DNA from: Proteobacteria bacterium UBA5680 | GTDB taxonomy: Bacteria > Pseudomonadota > Gammaproteobacteria > Arenicellales > UBA5680 | DNA length: 64,000 bases | Direction of reading: 5' to 3' | Assembly: GCA_002420425.1 (NCBI GenBank) | Contig: DIIC01000017.1 | Location: forward strand, 76,052 to 140,051 | Part shown: positions 16,965-62,198 of the stretch, one piece after another | How the letters are laid out: every line of letters begins with the position of its first letter | Position numbering within the stretch: the stretch's first letter is position 1 | Translations under genes and position numbers: made by a program | Notes under the pieces: model-generated | The model's input: the letters and a program-made list of their open reading frames with translations, nothing else | Databases searched by the model: none | Told to the model about the DNA's origin: nothing

Positions 16965-17792
16965 GTGATGAGGCGGGTCTTTATTGGCTGGAAAAGGATT
17001 GTATTGTTGCTGGGTACCGTGATGCTGTTTAATTCAGGCGTTGCTATGGAGAATGGAGAGATCAAGCTGGCAACCACTACCAGTACAGTCAACTCAGGTC
17101 TGCTTGATCAACTGTTGCCCGTCTTTACGCGTGCAAGCGGTATTCGAGTCAAGGTGATTGCGGTTGGCACGGGCAAGGCGCTAAAGATGGGGGTCGACGG
17201 TGATGTTGATATTGTTCTTGTCCATGCGCCTAAGGCAGAAACCCAATTTGTTGCTTCGGGCAGTGGCGTGGGTCGTCGACAGGTGATGTATAATGACTTT
17301 GTTGTCGTTGGGCCATTATCTGATCCGGCTGACATCAAGAACGCATCGAATATTGACACCGTCTTTAACCGAATCGCCAATAAAAGTGCACTCTTCATTT
17401 CAAGGGGTGATGATTCAGGTACTCATAAAAAGGAGCTCCTGCTATGGAAGCGTTCATCTCTCGACCCAGATGGTGTCTGGTATCGGGAAGTAGGGCAGGG
17501 AATGGGAAGGACCCTTCAGATTGCCAATGAACTGCAAGGCTATACGCTGACTGACAGAGGAACCTGGCTGGCTACTCGAGACCAATATGATCTGGATCTC
17601 TTGTTTTCTGGTGATTCGGCCCTTTTTAACCCTTATGGGATAATTCCAGTCAACCCAAAACGACATCCCCATGTCAACTACGCGGCCGCAAGTCGTTTTG
17701 CTGAATGGTTGGTGACACCGGCCACAGGGAGGTTGATTGCCAATTATCGAGTGGGGGGTGAACAACTCTTTGTACCCATGAGTGGTGAGTAG
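16965..17792 (+). CDS. tupA: tungstate/molybdate-type ABC transporter substrate-binding protein (TupA-like)
   Basis: 275 aa. Signal peptide, then the TupA-type stretch ATTTSTVNSGLLDQLLPVF...VGTGKAL...DIVLVHAPKAE. Followed by a cognate permease and ATPase. Confidence 0.7.
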   Translation: MMRRVFIGWKRIVLLLGTVMLFNSGVAMENGEIKLATTTSTVNSGLLDQLLPVFTRASGIRVKVIAVGTGKALKMGVDGDVDIVLVHAPKAETQFVASGSGVGRRQVMYNDFVVVGPLSDPADIKNASNIDTVFNRIANKSALFISRGDDSGTHKKELLLWKRSSLDPDGVWYREVGQGMGRTLQIANELQGYTLTDRGTWLATRDQYDLDLLFSGDSALFNPYGIIPVNPKRHPHVNYAAASRFAEWLVTPATGRLIANYRVGGEQLFVPMSGE

Positions 17793-17798
17793 ACATTA

Positions 17799-18500
17799 AT
17801 GCAGACACTTGGTGAAGTTACTCTTGATGCTTATCGCTTGCTTTTTTCAGGTGATCGGGAGTTATGGGAGATTATTCTTCTCTCCTTTAGTGTCTCCCTA
17901 AGAGCGATCGTGTTTGTAACCCCATTGGCACTGGCAGTGGCTTTTATACTGGCCTACACCCGTTTTCCGGGACGTCAATTTTTAATTTCACTGTTCAACT
18001 CTCTCCTTGCGCTCCCCGCAGTTGTGGTGGGCTTATTGCTCTATGTCCTGCTCTCTCGAGCAGGTCCGCTTGGGGATTGGCGGCTCTTGTTTACTCAATC
18101 AGCAATGATTCTTGGGCAGATGGTTCTCTGTTTTCCCATCCTGGTCTCAATGAGCCATGCTTCCATACAGGGTGGAGATCGCAGAGTGTGGGAGACCGCC
18201 ATCACTCTGGGCGCATCACCACTCAGGGCCATGTTTACACTGCTGTATGAAGTTCGCTTTGGATTAATGGCAGCAATTGCTGCTGGTTTTGGCAGAGTTA
18301 TCGCAGAGGTGGGATGTTCAATGATGGTGGGCGGCAACATTCTCCATTTTACCCGTAATATCCCAACGGCCATCGCTCTGGAGACGAGCAAGGGTTCATT
18401 CTCTCAGGGTATTGCTCTGGGTATGGTGCTTCTTTTTCTGGCTCTTCTGCTTAACTTCATGGTCAGTCAGTTCAGAGGTCATGGAACGTTGAGCGAATGA
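17799..18500 (+). CDS. tupB: tungstate ABC transporter permease (TupB-like)
   Basis: 233 aa, 5-6 TM ABC permease. Overlaps the next gene by 4 nt. Confidence 0.7.
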   Translation: MQTLGEVTLDAYRLLFSGDRELWEIILLSFSVSLRAIVFVTPLALAVAFILAYTRFPGRQFLISLFNSLLALPAVVVGLLLYVLLSRAGPLGDWRLLFTQSAMILGQMVLCFPILVSMSHASIQGGDRRVWETAITLGASPLRAMFTLLYEVRFGLMAAIAAGFGRVIAEVGCSMMVGGNILHFTRNIPTAIALETSKGSFSQGIALGMVLLFLALLLNFMVSQFRGHGTLSE

Positions 18501-19159
18501 AAAAGAGTACGAAAACAATGATCTGGCGGACGGTTAAAGTATCAGTCGGTGGAAGGCCGGTTGTAGATGTTGATACCATGACGATCGCATCAGGCCAGTG
18601 TATTCGACTGGCGGGGTCCAATGGGTCCGGTAAAACAACCTTGCTCAAGGTTATTGCCGGGTTATTGAAGCCAGACAATGGAAGTGTGGAAATGGAAGGG
18701 CAGCTACTTGAGTGGGTTGAAGCAAAAAAAATACTTCACAACAAGGTCGTCTATCTTCATCAACAGCCCTATCTTTTTGATACTACAGTGACAAAGAATA
18801 TCGAATACGGGCTTCGTCAACAGGGCGTCAAGGGTGAGGCATTAAGAAGCCAGGTTGCAGAGGCACTCGAGTGGGCCCAGTTAACGCACCTTGCAGACCG
18901 TCACGCCCGTCAACTTTCCGGGGGTGAGAGCCAGAGGGTCGCTTTAACTCGCGGCCGGGTAGTCCATCCAGAAGTATTACTCCTTGATGAGCCCACATCA
19001 GGAATGGACGCCGAGTCACGCAATAAAACTTTCGAACTTGTCCATCGGCTGCGTGAACAGGGAATGGCTATGATATTGACCAGTCATGAGCTGACAGAGG
19101 AGGCCGGTCTTTCCGACATGACTTATGAGATTGTGGGAGGAAAGCTGAGGTCAATCTGA
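18497..19159 (+). CDS. tupC: tungstate ABC transporter ATP-binding protein (TupC-like)
   Basis: Walker A GSNGSGKTT, signature LSGGESQRVAL, Walker B LLLDEPTSGMD. Confidence 0.7.
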   Translation: MKKSTKTMIWRTVKVSVGGRPVVDVDTMTIASGQCIRLAGSNGSGKTTLLKVIAGLLKPDNGSVEMEGQLLEWVEAKKILHNKVVYLHQQPYLFDTTVTKNIEYGLRQQGVKGEALRSQVAEALEWAQLTHLADRHARQLSGGESQRVALTRGRVVHPEVLLLDEPTSGMDAESRNKTFELVHRLREQGMAMILTSHELTEEAGLSDMTYEIVGGKLRSI

Positions 19160-19229
19160 GCATTCATCCGCTTTTACTCCCTTCAAACAGCAAACATCAA
19201 AGAAATAGTAACCAAGTGCAGGAGATCTG

Positions 19230-20456
19230 ATGGCCAACAATAGTGAACAAAAGATGCTCACCTTCAAAGAGGCGTTGACTCGAATTGAATCTTCAATCAC
19301 GCCTCTTTCAGGCTCTGAACAGGTTTCAATTGTGGATGCCCTTGGCCGGGTTGCCAAACAGGACGTTAACTCCCCGATCGCAGTACCGGCTCATACAAAC
19401 TCGGCCATGGACGGATATGCATTCCGTTTTGATGACATCACACCGTCAGGTGAGCCAACCCATCTAATCATCATTGGCGGAGCACTTGCCGGGAAGCCCT
19501 TTGACGGAGAGGTAAAGTCTGGTGAATGTGTCCGGATTATGACCGGTGCAGTTCTCCCTCAAGGGGCCGATACGGTAGTTATGCAGGAACAGGTTGAAGC
19601 TACTGACAGCGGTGCTTTGATAGGGGGTGAGATCAGCAAGGGACAGAATGTCAGGCAGGCCGGAGAAGACCTGCAACAAGGTGGGGTGGCCCTTGCCGCA
19701 GGAAAACGAATTCGGCCCGCAGAGTTGGGTCTACTGGCTTCTATTGGGGTTTCGGATCTAACTGTCACACGCAGGCCAAAAGTAGCATTCTTCTCAACAG
19801 GCGATGAGTTGCGATCCATTGGAGAGCGTTTAGAGGTCGGTCAAATCTATGATAGTAATCGCTACACCCTAATGGGAATGCTGAAGGATCTTGGTGTAGA
19901 GATTGAGGATATGGGAATTATCCCTGACGATCGCAGGATGACCCGTGAAGCGTTTACCGCTGCAGCGGCCACAGCCGACATGCTGATCACCTCTGCCGGA
20001 GTATCAGTGGGTGAGGCTGACTATATTGCAGAGACGCTGGCTTCCCTGGGTAGTGTTGATTTCTGGAAATTGGCGATCAAACCAGGCAGACCTCTCGCTT
20101 TTGGTCAGATTGGCAATGCCCAGTTTTTCGGGCTTCCTGGCAACCCTGTAGCGGTAATGGTCACCTTTCATCAGTTCGTAGTTCCTGCGCTTCGGCGAAT
20201 GATGGGTGAGAGTACAACACTGATGCCTAGATTCAGGGTGCAGTGTGATGCTCATCTTCGAAAAATTCCGGGCCGGCTTGAATTTCAGCGTGGAGTTCTC
20301 TTTCAAACCAAAGAAGGAAGTTGGCGTGTCACGACTACGGGTCAACAAGGATCGGGAATTCTCAATTCAATGAGTCAGGCGAACTGTTTTATCATTCTGT
20401 CCGAAGAGTCATCATCTGTTGAACCGGGGATGGAGGTGGAGATCCAGCCCTTCTAG
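19230..20456 (+). CDS. moeA: molybdopterin molybdenum/tungsten transferase MoeA
   Basis: 408 aa. MoeA pattern SPIAVPAHTNSAMDGYAF...GADTVVMQE...FSTGDEL...DSNR...GLPGNPVA. Located 70 nt after tupC. Confidence 0.88.
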   Translation: MANNSEQKMLTFKEALTRIESSITPLSGSEQVSIVDALGRVAKQDVNSPIAVPAHTNSAMDGYAFRFDDITPSGEPTHLIIIGGALAGKPFDGEVKSGECVRIMTGAVLPQGADTVVMQEQVEATDSGALIGGEISKGQNVRQAGEDLQQGGVALAAGKRIRPAELGLLASIGVSDLTVTRRPKVAFFSTGDELRSIGERLEVGQIYDSNRYTLMGMLKDLGVEIEDMGIIPDDRRMTREAFTAAAATADMLITSAGVSVGEADYIAETLASLGSVDFWKLAIKPGRPLAFGQIGNAQFFGLPGNPVAVMVTFHQFVVPALRRMMGESTTLMPRFRVQCDAHLRKIPGRLEFQRGVLFQTKEGSWRVTTTGQQGSGILNSMSQANCFIILSEESSSVEPGMEVEIQPF

Positions 20457-26325: not shown

Positions 26326-27393
26326 ATGACGCGTGTAATTGATTTTAAATCAGTGGGTAAGAGTGATATCCCGGAAGTGGGCGGAAAGTGTGCAAGTCTG
26401 GGTGAGCTACTGGATGCAGGGATACGGGTGCCGCATGGTTTTGCTGTAACCACCAGATGCTACAAAGAGTTTATCTCTGAGACAGGGATAGAAGAGGATA
26501 TCTTTCTCACTCTAAATGAGATCAACCCCGATGATATCGCCGAGTTGGATCGCCGGAGTGAAACAATCCGCGGGTTGATTAAAAAGAACCCAATGCCCAT
26601 CAAGATTCAAAAAGAGGTTGAAGAGGCATACGAAGGATTGGGCAAGGCGTACCACGACCTCAAACTCCCGGTCGCAGTTCGGTCAAGTGCAACCGCAGAA
26701 GATCTGCCCACCGCAAGCTTTGCAGGACAACAGGATACCTATCTTTGGACGATTGGGGTTGCCCAGGTCATTGCAAACATCAGGCGTTGCTGGGCAAGTC
26801 TTTATACTTCGCGGGCGATCAGTTACAGAATTAAAAATAACTTCAAACATCAGGATGTTTTTATCAGTGTCGGCATTCAGAAGATGGTGAGTTCAAAGAC
26901 CTCAGGTGTGATGTTTACGATTGATCCTACAAATGGTGATCCCTCAAAGGTGGTTATTGAAGGCAGTTGGGGGTTTGGTGAAACCGTTGTTGGAGGTTAT
27001 GTTAATCCGGATAAATTTGTAGTGGATAAAATAACCAAAGAGATTAACCAACGAAAGATCTCTCAAAAGCATATTGAGTGTGTCTATGATCAGGATAAGG
27101 GTTGCATCGTTCATAAAGATGTTGATGAGGATATGCAGGAAGAGCGCTGTCTGAATGATGACGAAATAAAGGAACTGGTCTCGATAGCAAGAACGATCGA
27201 ACGCCACTATGGCTGCCCTCAGGATATTGAGTGGACTATAGATAAGGAGGACTCATTCCCAGACAACATTTTTATCGTTCAGAGTCGGCCGGAAACTGTT
27301 TGGAGTCAGAAGCAGGGTAAGCCACTTCTTGGAGGAAAAAGCGGCTATGACATTATGATGGAAAGGGGGCTGAAGACGATAAAGATGACTTGA
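26326..27393 (+). CDS. PEP/pyruvate-binding (PPDK_N, ATP-grasp) domain protein, phenylphosphate synthase beta (PpsB)-like
   Basis: 355 aa (about 40 kDa). Reads VGGKCASLGELLDAGIRVPHGFAVT...VAVRSSATAEDLPTASFAGQQDTYL...QDIEWTI. It has only the nucleotide-binding part of a PEP synthase, with no mobile His domain. Confidence 0.75.
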   Translation: MTRVIDFKSVGKSDIPEVGGKCASLGELLDAGIRVPHGFAVTTRCYKEFISETGIEEDIFLTLNEINPDDIAELDRRSETIRGLIKKNPMPIKIQKEVEEAYEGLGKAYHDLKLPVAVRSSATAEDLPTASFAGQQDTYLWTIGVAQVIANIRRCWASLYTSRAISYRIKNNFKHQDVFISVGIQKMVSSKTSGVMFTIDPTNGDPSKVVIEGSWGFGETVVGGYVNPDKFVVDKITKEINQRKISQKHIECVYDQDKGCIVHKDVDEDMQEERCLNDDEIKELVSIARTIERHYGCPQDIEWTIDKEDSFPDNIFIVQSRPETVWSQKQGKPLLGGKSGYDIMMERGLKTIKMT

Positions 27394-27451
27394 ATTTCTG
27401 TTGTTTCAAAAATTGTAGTTTTTCTATTTTATTCTATGAGGAAATTGTTCG

Positions 27452-28852
27452 ATGAAAGATATGAGAGATTTTATTTCGCAAGGTGAGGAAGCTGGCCTGG
27501 TAAAACGGATTACAGCTGAAGTGGACCCCTATCTGGAACTATCTCACATTGCAAAACTGAATGAAGAAGAGCGTGGTCCTGCCCTGCTTTTTGAAAATAT
27601 CAAAGGTTATAGCTCACCGGTCATCACCAGTGTTTGTACAACTGAAGAACGTCTGGCTTTTATTATGGGTCAGCCACGGGAGTCATCGCTGTTTGATCTG
27701 TATGAGGAATGGGCAAAGCGCGGGGATGATTTGACTCCACCGAAATGGGTTGACTCTGCTCCCTGTAAGGAAAATATTCTGTTGGGAGATGATATCGATC
27801 TGTATAAATTCCCGATCCCTCACTACTACCCACTTGATGGAGGGCCGTATTATGGAACAGCTCACTTCATCATAACTAAAGACCCTGATTCTGGATGGGT
27901 CAATTTGGGAACCTATCGTAGTCAACTGCTTGAAAAAGATAAGATCGGGACTCAGTTCATTAAAGGCAAACATGCCGACATCATGCTGAAGAAATACCAG
28001 GCCCGTGGGGAAAAAATGCCAGTTGCCTCTATTTCAGGCTGTGATCCACTCCTCTTTATCCTCGGGGCATCGAGAGTCTCCGCATTTGTTTCAGAATATG
28101 ATGTTGCCGGGGCACTCCGAGGCCAACCTGTAGAGGTCATCAGAGGAGAAACTGTCGATCTGCCCATTCCGGCCACTGCTGAAATGGTTGTGGAGGGTTT
28201 TGTTGATCCTGAAGCCTTCTATGAAGAAGGGCCCTTCGGTGAATATACGGGATACTATTCAGGTGTTGGTACAGACCCAAGAAACTTTATTGAAGTTTCC
28301 TGCATGACCCACCGTGATAACCCTATACACCATGGCACAACAGTAGGTCGTGCTGTGACCGATACCCATATGACCATGGCGCTCTCTTATGGGGCCACTC
28401 TATGGCAACAGCTTAATACGATGAAAATCCCTGGCCTGAAATCATGCTACTGTCCTCCTGAAGGGTCGGGGCGTTTTTTGGCCATCATTTCAATAACACA
28501 GATGTATCCGGGCCATGTAGACCAGGTTTTAACCGCCGCAATTTCAACAGAGATGGGCGCATACGGATTAAAAACGGTCATTGTTGTGGACGAGGATATT
28601 GATCCCTGGGATATTCCTCGGGTGATGTATGCCCTTAGTTTCCGCTTCCAGCCGAACCGTTCTCAAGTCATTAAAAGAGGGCGTTCAACCCCACTCGATC
28701 CTTCCCTGCCCATTAGTGCACGGGAGATCACCGGGAGACTGTTGATGGATGCCACCATTCCATATGAATGGGAAAAGAAGCCTATACCGATTGAACTCGA
28801 TCCTGAGATCGTTGATCGGGTTAAATCACGCTGGTCAGAACTTGGCCTTTGA
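27452..28852 (+). CDS. UbiD-family prFMN-dependent (de)carboxylase
   Basis: 466 aa. UbiD-like start MKDMRDFISQGEEAGLVKRITAEVDPYLELSHIAKL...GPALLFENIKGY, with the later stretch GPFGEYTGYY. Confidence 0.85.
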   Translation: MKDMRDFISQGEEAGLVKRITAEVDPYLELSHIAKLNEEERGPALLFENIKGYSSPVITSVCTTEERLAFIMGQPRESSLFDLYEEWAKRGDDLTPPKWVDSAPCKENILLGDDIDLYKFPIPHYYPLDGGPYYGTAHFIITKDPDSGWVNLGTYRSQLLEKDKIGTQFIKGKHADIMLKKYQARGEKMPVASISGCDPLLFILGASRVSAFVSEYDVAGALRGQPVEVIRGETVDLPIPATAEMVVEGFVDPEAFYEEGPFGEYTGYYSGVGTDPRNFIEVSCMTHRDNPIHHGTTVGRAVTDTHMTMALSYGATLWQQLNTMKIPGLKSCYCPPEGSGRFLAIISITQMYPGHVDQVLTAAISTEMGAYGLKTVIVVDEDIDPWDIPRVMYALSFRFQPNRSQVIKRGRSTPLDPSLPISAREITGRLLMDATIPYEWEKKPIPIELDPEIVDRVKSRWSELGL

Positions 28853-28869
28853 CAAGTCGGGGTGCGTCA

Positions 28870-29667
28870 ATGGTGGATCGTGAGATAAAAGGGATTGTCT
28901 TCGATATAGACGGTTGTGTTGTTCGAGGGAAGAAAGTAATTCCAGGTGTGCCGGATACACTGACTGAATTACGAAGACGAAAGATCCGTTTTGCATTTCT
29001 CACTAATGACAACCAGAACACGCGTCACTTTCTCGCTGAGAAATTGTCGGCCATGGGAATCCCTGCCAACGAAGATGAGGTGTTGACCTCAGCGATTATT
29101 GCTGCTCGTGCAGCCCGGGAACTCCATCCAAACAGCAAGATACTTGCTTTTGGTGGAGCCGGTTTGATTGAGGCCTTGAATGATCAGAAGTTGGATCTGG
29201 TGGACCATGATCATGCGGAGGAAGCGGAAGTTGTTATAATGGGCAAAGATCCCAATTTTAGCCAACAACGCCTTGCTCTGGCTTGTCAGGCCATCTGGCG
29301 TGGCGCCGATTTTATCGCCACAAATTATGACCCAAAAATACCGGTAGAGAGTGGTTTCATTCCTGCATCAGGTCCCTTCATCAAGGCAGTAGCCTACGCT
29401 ACCGGCAAAGAACCTCTCGTTACTGGAAAACCCTCCGAGTGGTCTGGCGAGATGGCAATGAAGGTGCTTGATGTCTCTCCAGATCAGGGAATGGTTGTTG
29501 GTGATAGCTTGCAGCAGGATATTGCAATGGGAAAAGTGGCCGGTCTTTATACTGTCCTGGTGCTCACCGGAGGCAGTACACTCGAAGAGGCGCAGGATGC
29601 GCCTGATGAAATCAAGCCTGATCTCATACTTCCAGATGTAAATCATCTGCTTGAACATCTTGGCTGA
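28870..29667 (+). CDS. HAD-superfamily (subfamily IIA, NagD-like) phosphatase-like protein
   Basis: DxD motif VFDIDGCVV, then LTNDN, then a late GDSLQQDI. ATG at 28870. The ORF is open from TTG 28849, which overlaps the UbiD stop. Confidence 0.75.
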   Translation: MVDREIKGIVFDIDGCVVRGKKVIPGVPDTLTELRRRKIRFAFLTNDNQNTRHFLAEKLSAMGIPANEDEVLTSAIIAARAARELHPNSKILAFGGAGLIEALNDQKLDLVDHDHAEEAEVVIMGKDPNFSQQRLALACQAIWRGADFIATNYDPKIPVESGFIPASGPFIKAVAYATGKEPLVTGKPSEWSGEMAMKVLDVSPDQGMVVGDSLQQDIAMGKVAGLYTVLVLTGGSTLEEAQDAPDEIKPDLILPDVNHLLEHLG

Positions 29668-30112
29668 TTTTCCTGAAAAGCTCTACAACTATCTGGGGTC
29701 GGGAACTCCAGGGCTGGTCATTACAATTGGAGAAGATGAGTTACCCAATACGGCTTATACCTGGGTAGTGGCCAGCGATCGAAAAACTGCTCGTTTTGCT
29801 GTCGATCAACAGAGTAATACCCAGATCAATTTGGAGGGAAACGGCAGATGTGCAATCCAGATAATAGGCCCGGAGAATTTGCTTTACCTGTTAAAAGGAC
29901 AAGCCCATTTTATCTCTGATCCAATAGAGATGGCGTCCCTGAGCTTATTGATCGCTGAAATGAGTGAAATGCAAATAAAAGATCAATCCTGGAAGGGGGT
30001 CAGCGTGACACCATTGGCCTATCAATGGCCGGCAGGGCAGAGTAAGAGAATGGAAAAGATGGAAGATGCACTCTTTGATCAGATGAGAATTGAGTTGCAA
30101 CCGCATCAGTAG
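29651..30112 (+). CDS. small protein, probably a PNPOx-like FMN-binding split-barrel fold
   Basis: 153 aa. TTG start overlapping the HAD gene by 17 nt. The pattern LVITIGEDELPNTAYTWVVASDRKTARFAV...TQINLEGNGRCAIQII...YLLKGQAHF resembles the pyridoxamine 5'-phosphate oxidase family. Confidence 0.45.
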   Translation: MNILADFPEKLYNYLGSGTPGLVITIGEDELPNTAYTWVVASDRKTARFAVDQQSNTQINLEGNGRCAIQIIGPENLLYLLKGQAHFISDPIEMASLSLLIAEMSEMQIKDQSWKGVSVTPLAYQWPAGQSKRMEKMEDALFDQMRIELQPHQ

Positions 30113-30155
30113 ACAAAACTGAATCTAATTTACATATGAGATAGATGAGGTAGGA

Positions 30156-30740
30156 ATGAGAAAATTAGTTATCGGTGTTGCAGGGGCAAGTGGGGTGATT
30201 TATGCGATTCGTCTTCTTGAAGTATTGCGTGATGTTTCAGATATTGAAACACATCTGGTGCTCAGTAAGGCGGCACACAAGACAATTGCCTATGAAACGG
30301 ATTCAACTGCCAAGCAAATTATAGCTTTGGCAGATGTACATCACTCTATTGACAATATTGCTGCATCTATTTCATCTGGTTCCTTCAAGACAATGGGGAT
30401 GATCGTTGTGCCGTGTTCGATGAAGACTCTTTCCGGCATCGCATCGTCATTCAGTGAAAATCTGCTGTTACGAGCTGCAGATGTCACTCTCAAAGACAGA
30501 CGGCCTCTTGTTTTGCTTCCTCGCGAGACCCCGCTCCACCTTGGCCATCTTCGGCTGATGGTACAAGTCACAGAGATGGGAGCAATTGTACTGCCGCCGA
30601 TGCCTGCTTTTTATCATAAGCCAAAAACAGTTGATGATATTGTAAATCAGACCGTCAATAGAACACTTGATATCTTTGGCATTGAGCTTGAGCACGATCT
30701 CTTTGACCGTTGGTCAGGCCCCGCTAATCAACAGAGCTGA
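30156..30740 (+). CDS. ubiX: flavin prenyltransferase UbiX
   Basis: 194 aa. Reads MRKLVIGVAGASGVIYAIRLLEVL...VVPCSMKTLSGIA...RRPLVLLPRETPL. Confidence 0.9.
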   Translation: MRKLVIGVAGASGVIYAIRLLEVLRDVSDIETHLVLSKAAHKTIAYETDSTAKQIIALADVHHSIDNIAASISSGSFKTMGMIVVPCSMKTLSGIASSFSENLLLRAADVTLKDRRPLVLLPRETPLHLGHLRLMVQVTEMGAIVLPPMPAFYHKPKTVDDIVNQTVNRTLDIFGIELEHDLFDRWSGPANQQS

Positions 30741-30747
30741 TTAAATA

Positions 30748-31206
30748 ATGAGCCTCCGTGAGAGAGCATTGGATTACTTGCAAGCGCACAAGGTGCTTTC
30801 ACTGGCGACATTTGGAGATCAAGGGGTTTGGGCCTCACCCCTCTATTATGCCAGTGATGATTTCAGTTTGTATTTTCTCTCTTCGCCCACCACTCGTCAC
30901 TGCCAGAATATCGAATCTGATCCAAGAGTAGCGGCAACGATCTATGAGGATTATGATGACTGGAAAGAGATCAAAGGGATTCAAATAGAAGGAGAGGTCA
31001 AGACTATCACAGGCTCAAAACAATTAAGTGTAATCGCTCGCTATACCGCCAAATTCCCTTTTATTGCAATGCAAAAGCCAACACAGATCAAACAGGCAAT
31101 GGAAAATATCTGCTGGTACTCACTCACCCCGACTCGTCTTTTTTTTATTGATAATTCAATTCGATTGGGCCATCGAACAGAAGTTCATCTGGATAGCCAG
31201 GGGTAG
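30748..31206 (+). CDS. pyridoxamine 5'-phosphate oxidase family (FMN-binding split barrel) protein
   Basis: 152 aa. Reads ALDYLQAHKVLSLATFGDQGVWASPLYYASDDFSLYFLSSPTTRHCQNIESDPRVAATI...IKGIQIEGEV. Confidence 0.75.
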   Translation: MSLRERALDYLQAHKVLSLATFGDQGVWASPLYYASDDFSLYFLSSPTTRHCQNIESDPRVAATIYEDYDDWKEIKGIQIEGEVKTITGSKQLSVIARYTAKFPFIAMQKPTQIKQAMENICWYSLTPTRLFFIDNSIRLGHRTEVHLDSQG

Positions 31207-31207
31207 T

Positions 31208-32503
31208 ATGAATTTCTTTGATCCGCAAATAGAGAAACTGACGCGTACTCAGTTACAGGCTCTTCAAATGGAGAAATTGAGTTCCTTGCTTGAATCAATA
31301 TACGGCAAGAACCAATTCTATACTGCCAAATATGATGATGCGGGAGTACACCCCGGATCCATCAAAGCACTTGATGATCTATCCCGATTGCCGCTTACTA
31401 CCAAGGCTGAATTAGTAGAGGCCCAACAACAGGATCACCCCTTCGGATTGAACGCAACATTCAATCAGGCCGCCTACACACGTTTTCACCAAACATCCGG
31501 GACTACCGGAGAACCATTAAGAGTCGTTGATACCCCGGAATCCTGGGAGTGGTGGGGGCGATGTTGGGGATATGTTTTAAGCGGTGCAGGATTGAGTGAC
31601 CAAGACCGGATCTTTGTCCCATTTTCATTTGGGCCATTTATCGGTTTTTGGGCAGCCGTAGAGGGCGCAAAACAAATAAAGGCAATGATGATACCCGGAG
31701 GAGGAAGAAATTCACTGCAGCGATTGCAGTTATTGAAAGAGCTCGATGTGACGGCCATGTGCTGCACACCTACTTATGCATTGCGGTTGGCAGAAGTGGC
31801 GGATGAGGCAGGAATAGATTTAAGCAAAATGCCACTCAAAGCGCTCATCAATGCCGGTGAGCCCGGCGCCAATGTTCCCGCAACCAAAGCCAGGATTCAA
31901 ACCTTATGGGATGTGAAGTGTTATGACCATGCCGGTGCCTCTGAAATTGGGGCCCATAGTTTTGAGTGTGAGATGCAGCCAAACGGGATACATCTCATTG
32001 AGAGCGAGTTTATTGTTGAAGTGCTTGATCCCATTGATTTAAAGCCAGTTCCTTCAGGAGAACAAGGCGAGCTGATAATCACCAACTTGGGTCGCACTGG
32101 TTTTCCAGCGATTCGTTACCGCTCAGGTGATTTGGTTCGATTGAATCAGGAGCAATGCAGTTGTGGGAGAACGTTTGCAAGATTTGAGGGTGGGGTCCTG
32201 GGCAGGGCTGATGACATGGTGGTAGTGCGAGGTGTGAACATCTATCCAAGTGCTGTAGAGAATCTAATACGGCAATGTCACACAGTCGGGGAGTTTCGGA
32301 TCACTGTCTCGACTCAATGTGAGATGAAAAGCCTCCAAGTTGAGATCGAACTCAATAAAGAGGCGGAGGATGAAGCTGCTCAAGCGTACGTTACTCAGAC
32401 AATGCAGAATGAGCTTGGTTTAAGGCCGGAAGTCTTGGTTGTTCCCTTTGGATCACTCCCACGCTTTGAGATGAAGGCAAAACGATTTCATATAAAGGAA
32501 TAG
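31208..32503 (+). CDS. PaaK-type (phenylacetate-CoA ligase family) adenylate-forming acyl/aryl-CoA ligase
   Basis: 431 aa from the ATG at 31208, 1 nt after the upstream stop. AMP motif FHQTSGTTGEP. Later YRSGD and GRADDMVVVRGVNIYP. The 31064 start in the track is an in-frame extension overlapping the upstream gene. Confidence 0.85.
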   Translation: MNFFDPQIEKLTRTQLQALQMEKLSSLLESIYGKNQFYTAKYDDAGVHPGSIKALDDLSRLPLTTKAELVEAQQQDHPFGLNATFNQAAYTRFHQTSGTTGEPLRVVDTPESWEWWGRCWGYVLSGAGLSDQDRIFVPFSFGPFIGFWAAVEGAKQIKAMMIPGGGRNSLQRLQLLKELDVTAMCCTPTYALRLAEVADEAGIDLSKMPLKALINAGEPGANVPATKARIQTLWDVKCYDHAGASEIGAHSFECEMQPNGIHLIESEFIVEVLDPIDLKPVPSGEQGELIITNLGRTGFPAIRYRSGDLVRLNQEQCSCGRTFARFEGGVLGRADDMVVVRGVNIYPSAVENLIRQCHTVGEFRITVSTQCEMKSLQVEIELNKEAEDEAAQAYVTQTMQNELGLRPEVLVVPFGSLPRFEMKAKRFHIKE

Positions 32504-32665
32504 ATTATTGATGTTAATGGCTCAAAAAAAATCGGAAGACCAATGTTTAAGGGTAACCCCGATCAATATGTTAAGGTCTAAGAAGGTTCTTCAACCCTTT
32601 GCAGGCCAGATAAAGAGGATGGATGGATTTACTCATTTATCCATAAAAACCTAAAGGAGGTAGTT

Positions 32666-34513
32666 ATGTCTAGCGATACAGTAGGACGTTTTCCAGATCC
32701 ACATGAATTCCAGGTCCCGAGCGAACTTGCAGGATGGGAAGAGATGTACCCCTCTCATCAGCTTTTTTCAGCTGATCGGGAGGAGTGGGAAAAAAACCAG
32801 TTTTGGTTTCAAGACAAGATTCATGCCCCTGAAGCAATTCCACCGCTTGACCATATTTTCCAGGAAGCATGGCAGATCTCACTATCTCAATATACAACAC
32901 GAGTCTTTTGTATCCCGCCCGCCCAAGGCATTGCGCAGCGAATGGTTGGTTGTTACCTCTACATCTGTGCTATTGCCCCACCCCCAGACGAAGTTCAGGG
33001 AGCAAAAGCGGAACGTTTCGGGGCGCGGGTATTTCCAGTATTTCAGAATTATGATGCCCTCTGGGAGAAGTGGTTAGTCAAATTTAAGGCCCTTGGCGAA
33101 GAGATGGATAATCTGAAAATACCTAATGAACTGCCAGAGTTCATTCCTGAGGAAGAGGTGTTGCCCGTACCCAAAGGGTGTTATGTCTCATACGACCTGA
33201 TGGAGGGCTTCGATAAACTCGTCAATATGATGTTTAAGGGTTGGCAGTATCATTTCGAGATGCTGAATCTCTCCTATCTTGCCTATCTGATGTTTACCGA
33301 TGTTGCCAGGAATCTATTCCCTGGAATAAGCGAAAGTTCGATCGGGAAAATGGTGGCGGGTGCCAATGTGGCCATGTTCCGACCAGAGGAGGAACTCTGC
33401 CAACTGGCAAGGCTGGCGCATTCCCAGAATGGCGTGGCCGATATCCTCAAAGGAGAGGGCTCTGCCAATGAGAAAATAGACCAGCTAGGAGAGCTGGCTG
33501 AAGGTAAAAGCTGGCTGGAACAGTTTCATAATGCCAAGGAGCCGTGGTTTTATGTCTCCTGCGGCAGTGGCTGGTATCACCATGAAGGAAGTTGGGTCAC
33601 AAACCTGGAAATTCCCCTTGGTTATATCAAGGGTTACCTGGAACAGCTTGACAATGGTGAAACCATTGAGCGTTCCCTTGAGAAAATCGAAAAGGATCGC
33701 GATGAGATCATAGCCGAATATCGCGGCCTGATAAAAACGGATGAAGATAAGAAAACCTTTGATGACACCTACAACAATATCCGCTCTATTTACCGCTACG
33801 CAGAAGACCATCTGTTCTGGGTTGAACATTGGTTCCATACAATCTGGTATGCCAAGATTCGAGAAATCGGAGCAGTGCTGGTTAAGATGAACATGCTGGA
33901 TAATATTGATGATATCTTCATGTTCAATCGCTATGAGATACCAGAGTTATTGACCGAGACGTCAACAGGGTGGGCATTAGGTGTCGATATTCCCATGCGG
34001 AGTGCTCACTATAAGGCTACGGTTGATAAGCGTCGTAAAATCCTTGACGCCGCAACGGAGTGGAATGCACAACCCGCCCTGGGAATACCCCCTGAGGAAG
34101 TTGCCGAACCATTCACTGTGATGCTCTGGGGCATTACCACTGATCGAGTTCAAGGGTGGTTAAAAGGGGTGGATGCTGCTTCGGGTGATGAAATCTCGGA
34201 GATTAGTGGTTTTGCCTCCTCTGCCGGGGTTGTAGAAGGACCCGCAAGAGTGTTGAAACGTCTTAAAGAAATTGTTGATATCCAACCCGGTGAAATTCTT
34301 GTCTGTGCCTCAACAAACCCCTCCTGGGCGCCAATTTTTACCAAAATCAAAGGGGCGGTTACTGATATAGGGGGTTTAACAAGCCATGCAGCGATAGTCT
34401 GCCGTGAGTATGGTATTCCCTCTGTAACAGGTACCGGGATTGCAACAACAACCATCAAGACAGGTGATAGGGTAAGAGTTGATGGTGATACGGGTGAGGT
34501 AACTCTACTCTAA
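32666..34513 (+). CDS. PEP-utilising-enzyme mobile-domain protein, phenylphosphate synthase alpha (PpsA)-like
   Basis: 615 aa (about 70 kDa). The C-terminal swivel domain has the phospho-His motif GGLTSHAAIVCREYGIP. I could not place the N-terminal region of about 500 aa in a family. No ATP-grasp part is present. Confidence 0.7.
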   Translation: MSSDTVGRFPDPHEFQVPSELAGWEEMYPSHQLFSADREEWEKNQFWFQDKIHAPEAIPPLDHIFQEAWQISLSQYTTRVFCIPPAQGIAQRMVGCYLYICAIAPPPDEVQGAKAERFGARVFPVFQNYDALWEKWLVKFKALGEEMDNLKIPNELPEFIPEEEVLPVPKGCYVSYDLMEGFDKLVNMMFKGWQYHFEMLNLSYLAYLMFTDVARNLFPGISESSIGKMVAGANVAMFRPEEELCQLARLAHSQNGVADILKGEGSANEKIDQLGELAEGKSWLEQFHNAKEPWFYVSCGSGWYHHEGSWVTNLEIPLGYIKGYLEQLDNGETIERSLEKIEKDRDEIIAEYRGLIKTDEDKKTFDDTYNNIRSIYRYAEDHLFWVEHWFHTIWYAKIREIGAVLVKMNMLDNIDDIFMFNRYEIPELLTETSTGWALGVDIPMRSAHYKATVDKRRKILDAATEWNAQPALGIPPEEVAEPFTVMLWGITTDRVQGWLKGVDAASGDEISEISGFASSAGVVEGPARVLKRLKEIVDIQPGEILVCASTNPSWAPIFTKIKGAVTDIGGLTSHAAIVCREYGIPSVTGTGIATTTIKTGDRVRVDGDTGEVTLL

Positions 34514-34543: not shown

Positions 34544-34580
34544 ATGAGGCTGGTGTAATCACCAGCCTCATTGTTGTTGT
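34544..34580 (+). terminator. rho-independent-type terminator
   Basis: Perfect 12-bp stem ATGAGGCTGGTG (34544-34555) / CACCAGCCTCAT (34560-34571) with loop TAAT, followed by TGTTGTTGT. Confidence 0.65.
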
Positions 34581-34749
34581 GTGACTGGAATTAATTGTCT
34601 CCAGGGGGTTGATTTACTGAGCTCTGTCACAAGCCAAGTTCACCGGGCAGGTTAAAACATACTTTCCTTATCCTGCACCAGCTGGTAATTTATTTTCTGG
34701 GTGAGTCACGTTTATCAATGCCGGGGTTTTAACAGCTTCATAGAAGAGG

Positions 34750-36960
34750 GTGATGAATATACAAAACCGAATCGATCGGCTCTGCTCCCGGATGCACCAA
34801 GCTCCGCAGTACCCCAACCAGGGTGCTGTCCAGTTTGTTGATCTGACAAACAGGGAATCACACTCTGCCTACTTTTCATCTGACGTTGCGAGCGCATTTC
34901 TTGGTGGACGTGGGGCAAATATGTATCTGCTCTATAACCTCCTCGATGAGGGTTGTCACCCACTAGACCCGCAGGTTCCGCTTATATTTGGGGCGGGCAT
35001 TCTCACGGGATTTGTGCCGGGGGCCCCAAGAGGGAATGTCTCCAGCCTCTCGCCCGATAGTCGAGCTATCCTTGATGCCAATGCGGGTGATTTTTTCCCC
35101 TCCTTCATGCGCCGTCACGGGATTGATCATCTGGTCTTGTATGGCAAGGCGCCCTCACTGACACTCCTTCATTACAAAGAGGGCTCTTTCTTTTTTGATG
35201 ATGCCACCCCCTACAGCGGGCTCAACAACCAATCTCTAACCGAACAGATAGAGTCTCACTACCACTGCAAAGAGGGCAAAGACATGGCCCTTGCGCGGAT
35301 TACTCAAGCGGGTGAAAACCAGGTCCTAACCAGTGGGATCATGGGGGGAGAGAAGTCAATTTGGGCGCGAGGGGGAGGCGGTGCAAAAATGGGGTCAATG
35401 CAGTTAAAAGCTCTCCTGATAGAGGGCGATGTTCCCAAACACACGCCGACCGCTCTGTTTCGAAGTAACAACAAGGCAATTGGAAAGAAGATCCTGAGCA
35501 CCAGTGTAGTGAAGAACGTACTTAAAAAAGTGGGCACTCCCTTTCTCTATAAAGCAAGCCGAACGCTCCATGCCCTCGGTGCTTTGAATAATCAGAAGAC
35601 CCAGTGGAGCAAAAGCCTGGATGCAGAGAACTTGACTCCCTATAAGAGGGGGATGACAGGATGTTACAAGTGCCCCGTACACTGTCGTATGCTCAATCAG
35701 CTTGATGAGGAGGGGGCCGCTCCCGGCACCCTGCTAAAGGGTGATGGTCCTGAATATGTCACTGTCGGCAAGTTTGGGCCCAATCTTGGGATTTCTGATC
35801 CTCAAGTGGTGGTCAGACTGAACAACAGGCTGAATGATCTTGGTCTTGATTCAGCCAGTACCGGGGGCGCGCTGGCTTGGGCTTTTGAACTCTATCAGCG
35901 AGGCATTATTACTACCCAGGAGACCGGGGGTTTGGTACTTGAGTGGGGTGATGGGGCGTTGGTAGAACAACTCCTGGAGATGACGGCTGCACGCAAGGGC
36001 TTCGGTTCGACTATTGCTGAGTCAGGGCGTGCAGTGGAGAAGGGGTGTTATCCTGATGAGGCGCTCGATTACCGGATGGCTGTCAAGGGTCTGTTTCAGT
36101 CAGACCCCCACGATTCACGCATCATCAAGGCATTTGCCCTGGGTCTTGCGGTGGCAACACGGGGAATGGATCATCTCAGAAACAGGGTTACACTCGAGAT
36201 CAATCCGAGAATCAATGATGACCCCGACTATAAAAAGAGTCTCTATGGGGGGATGGTCGACGCCAATCCGGCAAGTTATAACGGCAAGGAATATGCTGTT
36301 TCAAAATGTGAACAGGTTTTTGCAGCAGGAGATGCGGCCGGGATGTGTCGGTTTAATACCAAGCTGTTCAACTCTCCGTCGCTGCCCCATTGTGGTGATT
36401 TTGCGGTTCAGCTCAAAGAGTTGACCGGACTGCCTTTTACTGAAGAGAGTGTTGAGAGTGCCGGACAGAACATTAATCTCCTTGAGAGGCTGATTAATTT
36501 CAGGATAGGGTTGAGAGCCTCTGACGATACTCTTCCTGATCGCTGGTTTAATGAGTCTATCAAGAGTGGTCCCTATGAAGGTGAAAAGATAGAACGTTCT
36601 CATTTTGATGATTTAATACAGCGATACTACTCTCTGATTGGGGTTGGCCCGAATGGTATGGTGCTGGCAGACAAACACAGGGAGCTTGCCGAAAAAGTCA
36701 CAGGCTTCTGGGTTAATGTCCAGTTTCCGGACTCTCTTTTGGGTGGTACCGAGATCCCTTCAGTGTTTGATGAGCCGGTGGAAAACATCGTTGAGCTGAG
36801 AGAGAGATTGATTGGCCGTTATCCCATACTCAGAGAGCCGCTTGATGATGAACTGGCACTGGTAGTGGTTAATGGGGAGACTATCTTCTCAGGTGAGAGT
36901 GAGCACGCGGTAAAGAGTGGAGACTCAATTGAGTTTGTCCATGCCATTTCAGGCGGTTAA
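34750..36960 (+). CDS. tungsten-type aldehyde:ferredoxin oxidoreductase (AOR family) fused to a C-terminal MoaD/ThiS-like domain ending in Gly-Gly
   Basis: 736 aa. AOR N-domain (FLGGRGANMYLL). 4Fe-4S motif CYKCPVHC. The last 85 aa or so (from about 36697) read ...ELRERLIGRYPILREPLDDELALVVVNGETIFSGESEHAVKSGDSIEFVHAISGG-stop. Confidence 0.85.
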   Translation: MMNIQNRIDRLCSRMHQAPQYPNQGAVQFVDLTNRESHSAYFSSDVASAFLGGRGANMYLLYNLLDEGCHPLDPQVPLIFGAGILTGFVPGAPRGNVSSLSPDSRAILDANAGDFFPSFMRRHGIDHLVLYGKAPSLTLLHYKEGSFFFDDATPYSGLNNQSLTEQIESHYHCKEGKDMALARITQAGENQVLTSGIMGGEKSIWARGGGGAKMGSMQLKALLIEGDVPKHTPTALFRSNNKAIGKKILSTSVVKNVLKKVGTPFLYKASRTLHALGALNNQKTQWSKSLDAENLTPYKRGMTGCYKCPVHCRMLNQLDEEGAAPGTLLKGDGPEYVTVGKFGPNLGISDPQVVVRLNNRLNDLGLDSASTGGALAWAFELYQRGIITTQETGGLVLEWGDGALVEQLLEMTAARKGFGSTIAESGRAVEKGCYPDEALDYRMAVKGLFQSDPHDSRIIKAFALGLAVATRGMDHLRNRVTLEINPRINDDPDYKKSLYGGMVDANPASYNGKEYAVSKCEQVFAAGDAAGMCRFNTKLFNSPSLPHCGDFAVQLKELTGLPFTEESVESAGQNINLLERLINFRIGLRASDDTLPDRWFNESIKSGPYEGEKIERSHFDDLIQRYYSLIGVGPNGMVLADKHRELAEKVTGFWVNVQFPDSLLGGTEIPSVFDEPVENIVELRERLIGRYPILREPLDDELALVVVNGETIFSGESEHAVKSGDSIEFVHAISGG

Positions 36961-55560: not shown

Positions 55561-55610
55561 AATTTTCTGCGTTAGGGCTTCTACTTGGCTAATTTTTTGG
55601 GCTACACTAG

Positions 55611-55650: not shown

Positions 55651-55659
55651 GGACAATAC

Positions 55660-62189: not shown

Positions 62190-62198
62190 CAGAATATT

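What the first reader, a model, noticed from the sequence alone, without database searches (positions are those of the whole stretch)
34750..36960. Tungsten-type AOR fused to a ubiquitin-like MoaD/ThiS domain that ends exactly in Gly-Gly
The 736-aa protein has the AOR-family body, including the CYKCPVHC 4Fe-4S motif. A C-terminal domain of about 85 aa (from about 36697) follows. Its last residues, ...VNGETIFSGESEHAVKSGDSIEFVHAISGG-stop, match the beta-grasp sulfur-carrier pattern of MoaD/ThiS. The terminal di-glycine is the part that is adenylated and thiocarboxylated.

MoaD-like genes and domains are known to associate with AOR loci. A free GG terminus on the enzyme itself raises specific possibilities. 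One is in-cis sulfur delivery during tungstopterin synthesis or sulfuration. Another is SAMP-like covalent conjugation.

No E1-like MoeB/ThiF gene is visible in this window.

The gene is a separate transcription unit, with a strong terminator at 34544-34580. It directly follows the UbiD/CoA-ligase cluster. It shares the window with tupABC-moeA.
Basis: partly seen in the sequence, partly recalled or inferred. Interest (0 to 1): 0.65.

Follow-up and report, generated by a model that had tools for sequence, protein, structure and literature searches.

The report
Tungsten-type oxidoreductase with built-in MoaD domain
The gene does encode an AOR-family tungsten-type enzyme carrying a MoaD-like sulfur-carrier domain that ends in Gly-Gly, but this fusion was reported in 2006 and is widespread, so it is a new member of a known kind with an untested mechanism and an altered active site.

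Summary
ORF 34750/34753..36960 (+) encodes a 735/736-aa protein: AFOR_N, AFOR_C, then a ThiS/MoaD domain (Pfam above gathering score) ending ...HAISGG-stop. The predicted tail fold matches E. coli MoaD best. The terminal GG is present in 120/120 homologues, and the tail is under purifying selection (dN/dS about 0.11).

The fusion is not new. Iyer, Burroughs and Aravind (2006) reported MoaD fused C-terminally to AOR in Azoarcus. NCBI names many homologues "MoaD/ThiS family protein". A 2026 classification calls the AOR-adjacent ThiS-like protein WorX, function unknown.

The closest stand-alone relatives of the tail lie directly downstream of a same-clade AOR gene in 6/6 loci, so the fusion joins a known gene pair. 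No E1, MoaE or JAMM gene occurs in the window or near the fused gene in six other distinct contexts; tupABC with or without moeA, TRAP transporters and acyl-CoA ligases recur instead.

Best explanation (inferred): a dedicated MoaD-type sulfur carrier making molybdopterin for this enzyme's tungsten cofactor, using unlinked MoeB and MoaE.

Extra finding: catalytic Glu313 (PfAOR numbering) is Val/Ile/Thr in 120/120 homologues, Tyr427 is His in all 120, and Tyr452 is Arg. Canonical aldehyde oxidation is therefore not assured.

The parts
34544..34581 (+). Terminator-like hairpin plus T-rich tail after the PpsA-like gene. It separates that gene from the AOR gene.
   Evidence: 12-bp stem, 7 G-C pairs, 4-nt loop, tail TGTTGTTGTG. 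No sigma-70-like promoter and no Rfam family (including the Moco riboswitch) was found in the 34582-34749 leader.
34750..36960 (+). CDS of the fused AOR-family/MoaD protein (736 aa from GTG 34750; more likely 735 aa from ATG 34753)
   Evidence: The N-terminal residues are conserved across the family and in the 81% relative. The identical 735-aa protein is in NCBI as MDP6123051.1.
34828..35427 (+). AFOR_N domain (residues 27-226)
   Evidence: Pfam PF02730, E 2.8e-44
35473..36687 (+). AFOR_C domains 2 and 3 (residues 242-646)
   Evidence: Pfam PF01314, E 5e-88. Aligns end to end with 1AOR. The model body matches AOR-family structures with TMt 0.86.
35662..35685 (+). CxxCxxxC part of the 4Fe-4S site (C305, C308, C312). 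The fourth ligand, C533, is at 36346-36348.
   Evidence: Read from the sequence. Aligned to Pf Cys288/291/295/494. Invariant in 120/120 homologues.
35758..35760 (+). V337, the position of the PfAOR catalytic Glu313 (replaced)
   Evidence: Pairwise and profile alignments to 1AOR, 9mqx, 9g7j, 8c0z and 6x6u. The column is V98/I20/T2 in 120 homologues.
36109..36111 (+). H454, the position of PfAOR Tyr427 (replaced by an invariant His). R479 (36184-36186) replaces Pf Tyr452.
   Evidence: R479 is invariant in the 72-sequence alignment A1.
36703..36957 (+). MoaD-type beta-grasp domain (residues about 652-736), joined to the body by a short gap-free linker after helix 640-650
   Evidence: Pfam ThiS above gathering score. 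AF2 tail model has pLDDT 80, with top Foldseek hits E. coli MoaD 1nvi_D/1fm0_D. In the full-length model the tail has pLDDT 88-95 with pTM 0.91, and it again matches MoaD, SAMP1 and MOCS2A. hhalign against E. coli MoaD gives 96.3%. dN/dS is 0.11.
36952..36957 (+). Terminal Gly735-Gly736, followed directly by the stop codon (36958-36960)
   Evidence: Invariant in 72-sequence and 120-sequence sets and in the divergent fused representatives P0121, P0149 and P0161. Low pLDDT in both models, consistent with a flexible tail.
16965..20456 (+). Context: tupA-like, tupB-like and tupC-like ABC transporter genes, then moeA (tungstate uptake and metal insertion)
   Evidence: TupA and TupB are the best NCBIfam hits but below the equivalog cutoffs; MoeA passes at 573 bits against 440. 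The same gene set lies directly beside fused homologues in L016 and L017.

Best explanation
The gene encodes a single-subunit, presumably ferredoxin-linked, AOR/WOR-family tungstopterin enzyme. The small MoaD-like protein that usually sits just downstream of such genes (called WorX in 2026) has been fused to its C-terminus.

The proposed mechanism is as follows. The fused domain keeps a free, flexible C-terminal Gly-Gly. That end would be adenylated by a MoeB/ThiF-type E1 encoded elsewhere, then converted to a thiocarboxylate. With MoaE, it would donate the dithiolene sulfurs that turn cPMP into molybdopterin. The molybdopterin would then be loaded with tungsten by MoeA, using tungstate taken up by TupABC, and inserted into the same enzyme. 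The fusion ties sulfur-carrier supply one-to-one to the apo-enzyme. It may also channel the labile pterin to that enzyme.

Shown here: domain identities, the predicted fold, invariance of the GG, purifying selection, the split/fused gene relationship, and the tungsten gene context.

Inferred, not shown: adenylation, thiocarboxylation, use of MoaE, and any in-cis hand-off.
For: - Pfam ThiS is above its gathering score. The predicted tail fold matches MoaD from MPT synthase and from the MoeB-MoaD complex best. hhalign against E. coli MoaD gives 96.3%, aligned through GDxVxxxPxxxGG.
- GG is the last two residues in 120/120 homologues, although the tails are only 33-45% identical. dN/dS of the tail is 0.11.
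- Genuine stand-alone relatives of the tail (P0158, P0163, P0168, P0175, P0172) lie -4 to +15 nt downstream of a same-clade AOR gene in 6/6 loci.
- tupABC, with or without moeA, lies beside or near the fused gene in the window, L016 and L017.
- Literature. AOR-linked MoaD genes were proposed to make MPT for the tungsten cofactor (PMC1779556). Deleting any of the three T. kodakarensis Ubl genes, among them AOR-adjacent MoaD-family TK1065, lowered MPT derivatives, and AOR/FOR activities fell in the mutants (PMC11323500). WorX is predicted to act in pterin biosynthesis (PMC13328260).
Against: - No MoeB/ThiF or MoaE gene is in the 64-kb window or within 9-10 kb of the fused gene in six other distinct contexts. 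The required partners are therefore assumed, not seen.
- The tail scores below the NCBIfam equivalog cutoffs for thiS, archaeal moaD and SAMP1.
- The tungsten cofactor needs four sulfurs per enzyme, so a one-shot in-cis model is insufficient and the domain would need recharging.
- The confident fixed docking of the tail in the model (pTM 0.91) could mean that its MoaE/MoeB-binding face is occupied.
- No experiment on any fused member was found.
Confidence: 0.6

Rival explanations
1. The MoaD-like domain has lost its sulfur chemistry. It serves as a structural, assembly or chaperone-like module, for example a dimerisation or docking surface, or something that holds the apo-enzyme open for cofactor insertion.
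For: - The full-length model places the tail confidently against the body: pTM 0.91 and tail pLDDT 88-95.
- The linker has no indels across the family, suggesting fixed geometry.
- No E1 or MoaE gene is linked in any context.
- WorX function is stated to be unknown. AorD and AorE are not part of the purified AorABC enzyme.
Against: - A purely structural domain has no need for an exact C-terminal Gly-Gly, yet GG is the terminus in 120/120 homologues and in divergent fused representatives, despite 33-45% tail identity.
- The MoaD signature GDxVxxxPxxxGG is retained.
- The last residues are predicted to be flexible, as in MoaD tails that insert into MoeB and MoaE.
Confidence: 0.15
2. The thiocarboxylated tail delivers sulfur for a step other than the dithiolene. 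Examples are a terminal sulfido or other extra ligand on tungsten, or a modification specific to this clade's altered active site.
For: - The active site is remodelled: Glu313 to Val/Ile/Thr, Tyr427 to His, Tyr452 to Arg.
- Background knowledge, not tested here: some AOR-family enzymes carry additional or unknown tungsten ligands. BamB is described in this way in PMC6365974.
Against: - No direct evidence.
- The closest fold and profile matches are to MPT-synthase MoaD.
- The T. kodakarensis data link deletion of the Ubl genes to lower MPT levels.
Confidence: 0.1
3. The tail is a ubiquitin-like modifier. The whole enzyme becomes covalently attached through Gly736 to lysines of target proteins or of itself, in the manner of SAMP or TtuB.
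For: - There is a free GG terminus on a beta-grasp domain.
- Weak end-to-end sequence similarity to SAMP2/PF1061 and a fold match to SAMP1.
Against: - No E1 or JAMM/JAB gene in the window or in any of the six other contexts.
- The SAMP1 equivalog scores 16 bits against a cutoff of 60.
- The nearest relatives of the tail are AOR-operon MoaD-like genes.
- Inference: conjugating an 80-kDa metalloenzyme to targets has no precedent.
Confidence: 0.04

Closest known systems
AOR-MoaD fusion of Azoarcus (Aromatoleum) noted by Iyer, Burroughs and Aravind 2006 (PMC1779556)
   Same: Same architecture, AFOR_N + AFOR_C + C-terminal MoaD/ThiS ending in GG. The Aromatoleum/Azoarcus proteins are 57% identical over the full length.
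   Different: The window protein belongs to a shorter subclade (734-741 aa) that lacks an insertion of about 38 aa after the Fe-S motif, which the 774-aa majority has. It comes from an uncultured marine gammaproteobacterium and sits behind a phenylphosphate synthase/carboxylase-like cluster.
WorX: the ThiS-like protein encoded next to Class I WORs (PMC13328260, 2026)
   Same: A WorL-only enzyme paired with a ThiS/MoaD-like partner predicted to act in pterin biosynthesis. The stand-alone relatives of the tail are exactly such AOR-adjacent genes.
   Different: Here the partner is covalently fused rather than a separate gene. CsWOR87 also has thiF adjacent, and no such gene was found here.
E. coli MoaD in MPT synthase (MoaD2MoaE2) and in the MoeB-MoaD complex (1FM0, 1NVI, 1JWB)
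   Same: Best structural match (TMt 0.73-0.77, probability 1.0). The profile alignment runs through the C-terminal GDxVxxxPxxxGG.
   Different: Only about 22% identical. It is not a free 81-aa protein but the C-terminal domain of its presumed client enzyme. MoaE and MoeB partners were not observed.
T. kodakarensis TK1065, a MoaD-family Ubl encoded next to AOR, and AorD/AorE of the A. aromaticum aorABCDE operon
   Same: MoaD-like genes dedicated by position to an AOR-family enzyme. TK1065 is one of three Ubls whose individual deletion lowered MPT derivatives and tungsten-enzyme activity.
   Different: They are separate polypeptides. AorB partners with the AorA and AorC subunits, whereas the fused clade shows no such subunit genes nearby.
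P. furiosus AOR (1AOR) and other solved AOR-family enzymes
   Same: Same fold (TMt 0.86), Fe-S cysteines, pterin-binding Asp motifs, and Thr243, Glu311, Tyr312 and His448 equivalents.
   Different: About 26-29% identical. The proton-acceptor Glu313 is Val/Ile/Thr, Tyr427 is His and Tyr452 is Arg. No solved chain has the extra C-terminal domain.

Membership tests
AOR/WOR superfamily (tungstopterin oxidoreductase large subunit) | AFOR_N and AFOR_C domains above the Pfam gathering scores | tested here: met
   151.7 and 296.3 bits against cutoffs of 29.8 and 27
AOR/WOR superfamily (tungstopterin oxidoreductase large subunit) | Four Cys ligands of the [4Fe-4S] cluster (CxxCxxxC...C) and the two pterin-binding DxxGx(D/C) motifs | tested here: met
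   C305, C308, C312 and C533 are invariant; D363xxGxD367 and D528xxGxC533 are kept in at least 119 of 120 homologues
AOR/WOR superfamily (tungstopterin oxidoreductase large subunit) | Three-domain AOR fold | tested here: met
   AF2 model with pTM 0.91. Foldseek against 9mqx, 1aor, 9g7j and 8c0z gives TMt 0.86. This is a prediction, not a solved structure.
AOR/WOR superfamily (tungstopterin oxidoreductase large subunit) | Tungsten (not molybdenum) in the bis-pterin cofactor | not testable with these tools
   Context only: tupABC-like genes plus moeA are in the window and directly beside homologues. modABC is also present in the window.
AOR sensu stricto / aldehyde-oxidising WORs | [quoted passage not shown] | tested here: not met
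   Thr243 and His448 are kept (T263, H475). Glu313 is V98/I20/T2 and Tyr427 is His in 120/120. Tyr452 is Arg (R479, invariant in the 72-sequence alignment A1)..
AOR sensu stricto / aldehyde-oxidising WORs | NCBIfam equivalog for aldehyde ferredoxin oxidoreductase (NF007354) above its cutoff | tested here: not met
   83 bits against a cutoff of 868, and only the N-terminal domain matched
MoaD/ThiS sulfur-carrier family | PF02597 match above the gathering score | tested here: met
   27.8 bits (31.3 on the tail alone) against 22.5
MoaD/ThiS sulfur-carrier family | Beta-grasp fold | tested here: met
   Predicted model only. The top Foldseek hits are MoaD, CysO, SAMP1 and MOCS2A, with probability 1.0 and TMt 0.7-0.8, both for the tail alone and within the full-length model.
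MoaD/ThiS sulfur-carrier family | Gly-Gly as the last two residues, conserved among orthologues | tested here: met
   120/120 homologues, plus the divergent fused representatives
MoaD/ThiS sulfur-carrier family | Equivalog-level assignment (thiS TIGR01683, archaeal moaD TIGR01687, SAMP1 NF041918) | tested here: not met
   On the tail alone: 18.6 bits against a cutoff of 37.45 (thiS), 18.2 against 49.5 (moaD_arch), 16 against 60 (SAMP1). The tail is a family member, but of no curated subfamily.
MoaD/ThiS sulfur-carrier family | C-terminal adenylation by an E1 (MoeB/ThiF) and thiocarboxylate formation | not testable with these tools
   Needs biochemistry or mass spectrometry
MoaD/ThiS sulfur-carrier family | Cognate E1 and MoaE encoded in the genome | tested here: inconclusive
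   None in the 64-kb window and none within 9-10 kb in six other contexts. The rest of the genomes could not be searched.
WorX (AOR-adjacent ThiS-like protein of Class I WORs) | Encoded next to, and co-oriented with, a WorL gene that has no electron-transfer subunit genes | tested here: met
   Here the two are fused. The nearest stand-alone relatives are directly downstream of same-clade AOR genes in 6/6 loci. No WorS-like or WorN-like genes flank the fused genes.
Ubl conjugation systems (SAMP/TtuB type) | Association with E1 and JAMM protease genes; isopeptide conjugates | tested here: not met
   No ThiF or JAB domain in any context examined. Conjugates themselves are not testable here.

The most novel reading that the evidence does not exclude
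The MoaD-fused clade is a functionally distinct tungstoenzyme. Its active site has lost the universal proton-acceptor Glu313 and gained His and Arg, so it may act on something other than a simple aldehyde; an anionic acid or CoA-linked aromatic substrate would fit the recurrent acyl-CoA ligase and TRAP-transporter neighbours. It would also mature itself: its own MoaD domain would nucleate MPT synthase and a tungsten-dedicated MoeA on the apo-enzyme, giving a private tungsten-cofactor channel kept apart from the cell's molybdenum pool.
Probability: 0.2. Interest if true: 0.65.

Novelty: new member of a known kind. Interest (0 to 1): 0.35.

Why it matters
How cells direct a tungsten or a molybdenum pterin cofactor to the right apo-enzyme is still open. 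The T. kodakarensis authors state that the mechanism linking specific Ubls to specific apo-enzymes is unknown. The 2026 WOR classification calls WorX function unknown.

A natural covalent fusion of carrier and client is the cleanest handle on that question. The same fusion exists in cultured Aromatoleum and Azoarcus strains, which would be natural hosts for the GG-to-AA and tail-deletion experiments.

The remodelled active site suggests this large, uncharacterised WOR clade may have a different substrate or mechanism. That bears on anaerobic aromatic-compound metabolism in marine Gammaproteobacteria. The fusion by itself is not a discovery.

Tried and rejected
1. The top-scoring 'stand-alone' 82-aa hits (P0126 and similar) looked like free versions of the tail. 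P0126 lies on a frameshift-ridden contig where a fused gene is broken into AFOR_N, AFOR_C and ThiS pieces, so these hits were not used as evidence. Only hits with their own N-terminal strand were used.
2. The genome-contig scan with the single protein returned only one locus (L009).
3. Model coordinates are not exposed. I could not measure where the tail docks or how far the GG lies from the pterin channel, so in-cis reach could not be assessed.
4. I looked for a Moco/W-co riboswitch or any other Rfam family in the 180-nt leader and across the whole window. Only a tRNA at 5362-5435 was found.
5. No MoaD/MoaE-sized ORF with a plausible product was seen in the 1.2-kb gap after moeA.
6. Six literature searches found no paper that characterises a fused member. 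The library is limited to open-access papers, so absence is not proof.
7. I considered that the tail could be a decaying remnant. This was rejected because of dN/dS 0.11 and the invariant GG. dS is near saturation (1.2-1.8), so the ratio is approximate.
Full report
OBSERVATION

The ORF at 34750..36960 (+) exists as described. It is 736 aa from a GTG start. The ATG one codon later (34753, 735 aa) is the start shared with an 81%-identical relative, and the identical 735-aa protein is deposited as MDP6123051.1.

Pfam finds three domains:
- AFOR_N, residues 27-226, E 2.8e-44.
- AFOR_C, residues 242-646, E 5e-88.
- ThiS/MoaD (PF02597), residues 677-736, at 27.8 bits against a gathering score of 22.5. 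The tail alone scores 31.3 bits.

The protein ends ...HAISGG, and the stop codon follows directly. The CYKCPVHC motif is at residues 305-312. The upstream hairpin at 34544-34571 is a good terminator-like site.

Every non-overlapping ORF of 120 aa or more in the window was scanned against Pfam. None has a ThiF/MoeB, MoaE or JAB domain. TupA-like, TupB-like and TupC-like genes followed by moeA lie at 16965-20456. The source organism is an uncultured marine gammaproteobacterium; databases label identical proteins as Arenicellales or Acidiferrobacteraceae MAGs.

IS THE TAIL REALLY MoaD-LIKE, AND IS THE GG CONSERVED?

- A 19-sequence alignment of tails gave an AlphaFold model with pLDDT 80. Its best PDB matches are E. 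coli MoaD in MPT synthase (1nvi_D, 1fm0_D; probability 1.0, TMt 0.73-0.77). Next come mycobacterial MoaD, CysO, MoaD in the MoeB complex, SAMP1 and human MOCS2A.
- In the full-length model (pLDDT 85, pTM 0.91) the tail has pLDDT 88-95, and only the last residues are uncertain. The body matches AOR-family structures at TMt 0.86 over about 645 columns. The tail matches MoaD-type proteins separately. No solved chain contains both parts.
- hhalign of the tail profile against E. coli MoaD (sequence recalled from memory) gives 96.3% probability, aligned to the last Gly.
- All 120 best homologues (55-100% identity) end in GG. G735 and G736 are invariant, although the tails are only 33-45% identical to the query.
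- Against the 81% relative, dN/dS is 0.08 for the body and 0.11 for the tail. dS is near saturation, so these ratios are approximate.

HOW COMMON AND HOW NEW?

The fusion is widespread. Almost all top hits carry AFOR_N + AFOR_C + ThiS, most at 774 aa. They include Aromatoleum evansii, A. anaerobium, A. toluclasticum, A. toluvorans, Azoarcus sp. PA01, Sulfuritalea, Geothermobacter and Motiliproteus. NCBI names many of them 'MoaD/ThiS family protein'.

[quoted passage not shown] They proposed that AOR-linked MoaD genes make molybdopterin for the tungsten cofactor. A 2026 classification of more than 4,000 WORs calls the AOR-adjacent ThiS-like protein WorX, 'exact function unknown', predicted to act in pterin biosynthesis. 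I found no paper that tests a fused member.

ORIGIN OF THE FUSION

A profile of the tail was searched against 1.84 billion representative proteins. It returned fused proteins, fragments of them, and genuine 83-90-aa stand-alone relatives.

One apparent stand-alone hit, P0126, is a frameshift artefact of a fused gene. Five genuine ones were traced to six loci. In all six, the 3' end of an AOR gene lies immediately upstream, with a gap of -4 to +15 nt. That upstream AOR is 43-62% identical to the window protein's C-terminal part, and its alignment stops at residues 629-652, at or just before the point where the linker begins. The fused protein is therefore the joined form of an AOR + MoaD-like operon pair.

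Some split-form relatives carry a few residues after the GG and would need trimming. No fused protein examined does.

GENOMIC CONTEXT

Seven distinct contexts were examined:
- the window;
- its syntenic relative, L010/L011;
- Azoarcus PA01, L001;
- A. anaerobium, L018;
- a vent/sediment gammaproteobacterial MAG, L002-L005;
- Motiliproteus, L016;
- a 709-kb metagenome contig, L017.

None has an E1, MoaE or JAMM gene within 9-10 kb of the fused gene. The neighbours that recur are:
- tupABC, with or without moeA: directly adjacent in L016 and L017, and about 14 kb away in the window;
- TRAP transporters: L001, L017, L018;
- acyl-CoA ligases or synthetases: the window, L001/L018, L002-L005, L016;
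- 2-oxoacid:ferredoxin oxidoreductases: the window, L010/L011, L017.

In the window's own lineage the gene follows a phenylphosphate synthase/carboxylase-like cluster. The UbiD gene there passes the curated cutoff for phenylphosphate carboxylase beta.

MECHANISM

Best supported (confidence about 0.6): the tail is a dedicated MoaD-type sulfur carrier. Its free GG would be adenylated and thiocarboxylated by an unlinked MoeB-type E1. Together with MoaE it would make molybdopterin, which MoeA loads with tungsten for this enzyme.

The experimental anchor is T. kodakarensis. Deleting any of its three Ubl genes, one of which (TK1065, MoaD family) lies next to AOR, lowered MPT derivatives, and tungsten-enzyme activities fell in the mutants. 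The authors note that how a Ubl is matched to its apo-enzyme is unknown.

Everything after 'domain identity and conserved GG' is inference. Whether the hand-off is in cis is open. Four sulfurs are needed per cofactor, so the domain must be recharged in any case.

Rivals:
- a structural or chaperone-like role without sulfur chemistry (0.15), argued against by the invariant terminal GG;
- sulfur delivery for another tungsten ligand or modification (0.1);
- SAMP-like conjugation (0.04), with no E1 or JAMM linkage and no affinity to SAMP equivalogs.

AN UNEXPECTED POINT ABOUT THE ENZYME BODY

Reviews list Thr243, Glu313, Tyr427 and His448 (PfAOR numbering) as the conserved second-shell residues of aldehyde-oxidising AORs. 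Glu313 is the proton acceptor in all proposed mechanisms.

Pairwise and profile alignments to 1AOR, 9mqx, 9g7j, 8c0z and WOR5 place these positions as follows:
- Glu313 aligns with V337. The column is Val 98, Ile 20, Thr 2 in 120 homologues, and never an acid.
- Tyr427 aligns with H454, which is His in 120/120.
- Tyr452 aligns with R479, which is invariant in the 72-sequence alignment.
- Thr243, Glu311, Tyr312, His448, the Fe-S cysteines and the pterin motifs are all kept.

The unfused AOR encoded near a fused one in L002 has the canonical Glu and Tyr. One divergent fused representative, P0149, keeps the Glu.

The protein is therefore a member of the AOR/WOR superfamily, but it fails the residue test for a canonical aldehyde oxidoreductase. 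Its substrate and mechanism should be regarded as unknown. The CoA-ligase and TRAP-transporter neighbours fit either aldehyde-to-acid conversion feeding a ligase, or chemistry on an anionic aromatic substrate.

VERDICT

- Observation: confirmed.
- Interpretation: partly supported.
- Novelty: a new member, in a new lineage and a shorter subclade, of an architecture known since 2006.
- Interest: moderate to low for the fusion itself. It is raised somewhat by the untested mechanism, the existence of the same fusion in cultured Aromatoleum/Azoarcus strains, and the remodelled active site.

Noticed in passing
window 35758-35760, 36109-36111, 36184-36186 (V337, H454, R479): In the whole MoaD-fused clade the PfAOR proton-acceptor Glu313 is Val/Ile/Thr, Tyr427 is His and Tyr452 is Arg, while all cofactor-binding residues are kept. 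The clade may not be a canonical aldehyde oxidoreductase.
   Followed up: partly
window 26326-34513 (+): A compact phenol-type cluster in a marine gammaproteobacterial MAG. It contains PpsB-like, a single UbiD gene that passes the phenylphosphate carboxylase beta equivalog, a HAD phosphatase, two PNPOx-like genes, UbiX, a PaaK-like CoA ligase and PpsA-like. There is only one UbiD subunit rather than an alpha/beta pair. The cluster is syntenic in an 81% relative (L010/L011).
   Followed up: partly
window 5448-8036 (-), 16965-20456 (+), 57823-63188 (-): modABC-like and tupABC-like-moeA systems lie side by side, together with an FdhA-like molybdopterin enzyme, a NuoF-like subunit and FdhD. Molybdenum and tungsten cofactor economies coexist in one 64-kb stretch.
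   Followed up: no
window 49545-54488 (-): A 1647-aa PFOR-like protein (POR_N, PFOR_II, POR, Fer4, TPP_enzyme_C and an extra C-terminal ferredoxin domain) lies next to the rnf genes (45176-49511, with rnfB at 54682-55656). It is far longer than the ordinary 1189-aa PFOR at 21632-25201.
   Followed up: no
alignment A1, between query residues about 316 and 330: The 774-aa majority of fused AORs has an insertion of about 38 aa just after the CxxCxxxC motif. The window's 734-741-aa subclade lacks it.
   Followed up: no
P0164, P0165, P0170, P0172, P0190, P0200, P0227 (stand-alone relatives; P0172 in L015:235-507): Some stand-alone MoaD-like relatives of the tail carry 1-9 residues after the Gly-Gly and would need proteolytic trimming; P0172, the only one of them traced to a locus, lies directly downstream of an AOR gene. 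No fused protein examined carries such an extension.
   Followed up: partly
L006:681-6272: One frameshift-ridden metagenome contig carries two AOR-MoaD fusion genes in convergent orientation. Fragments of these inflate the apparent number of stand-alone tail proteins in databases.
   Followed up: partly
L017:12239-15923 and L016:13382-15784: tupC/A/B plus moeA (L017), or a tupABC-like set (L016), lie immediately downstream of fused AOR genes. This suggests a portable module of tungsten uptake, tungsten insertion and a fused sulfur carrier.
   Followed up: partly
window 30748-31206 and 31064-32503: The CoA-ligase ORF as listed (TTG start, 479 aa) overlaps the preceding PNPOx-like gene by about 140 nt. 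The homologue in L010 is called at 435 aa, so the true start is probably later.
   Followed up: no
window 9593-11164 (+) and 13926-16720 (-): A sortase gene lies next to a VIT/VWA-domain protein, and there is a separate VWA + peptidoglycan-binding protein. This looks like a proteobacterial sortase system unrelated to the finding.
   Followed up: no
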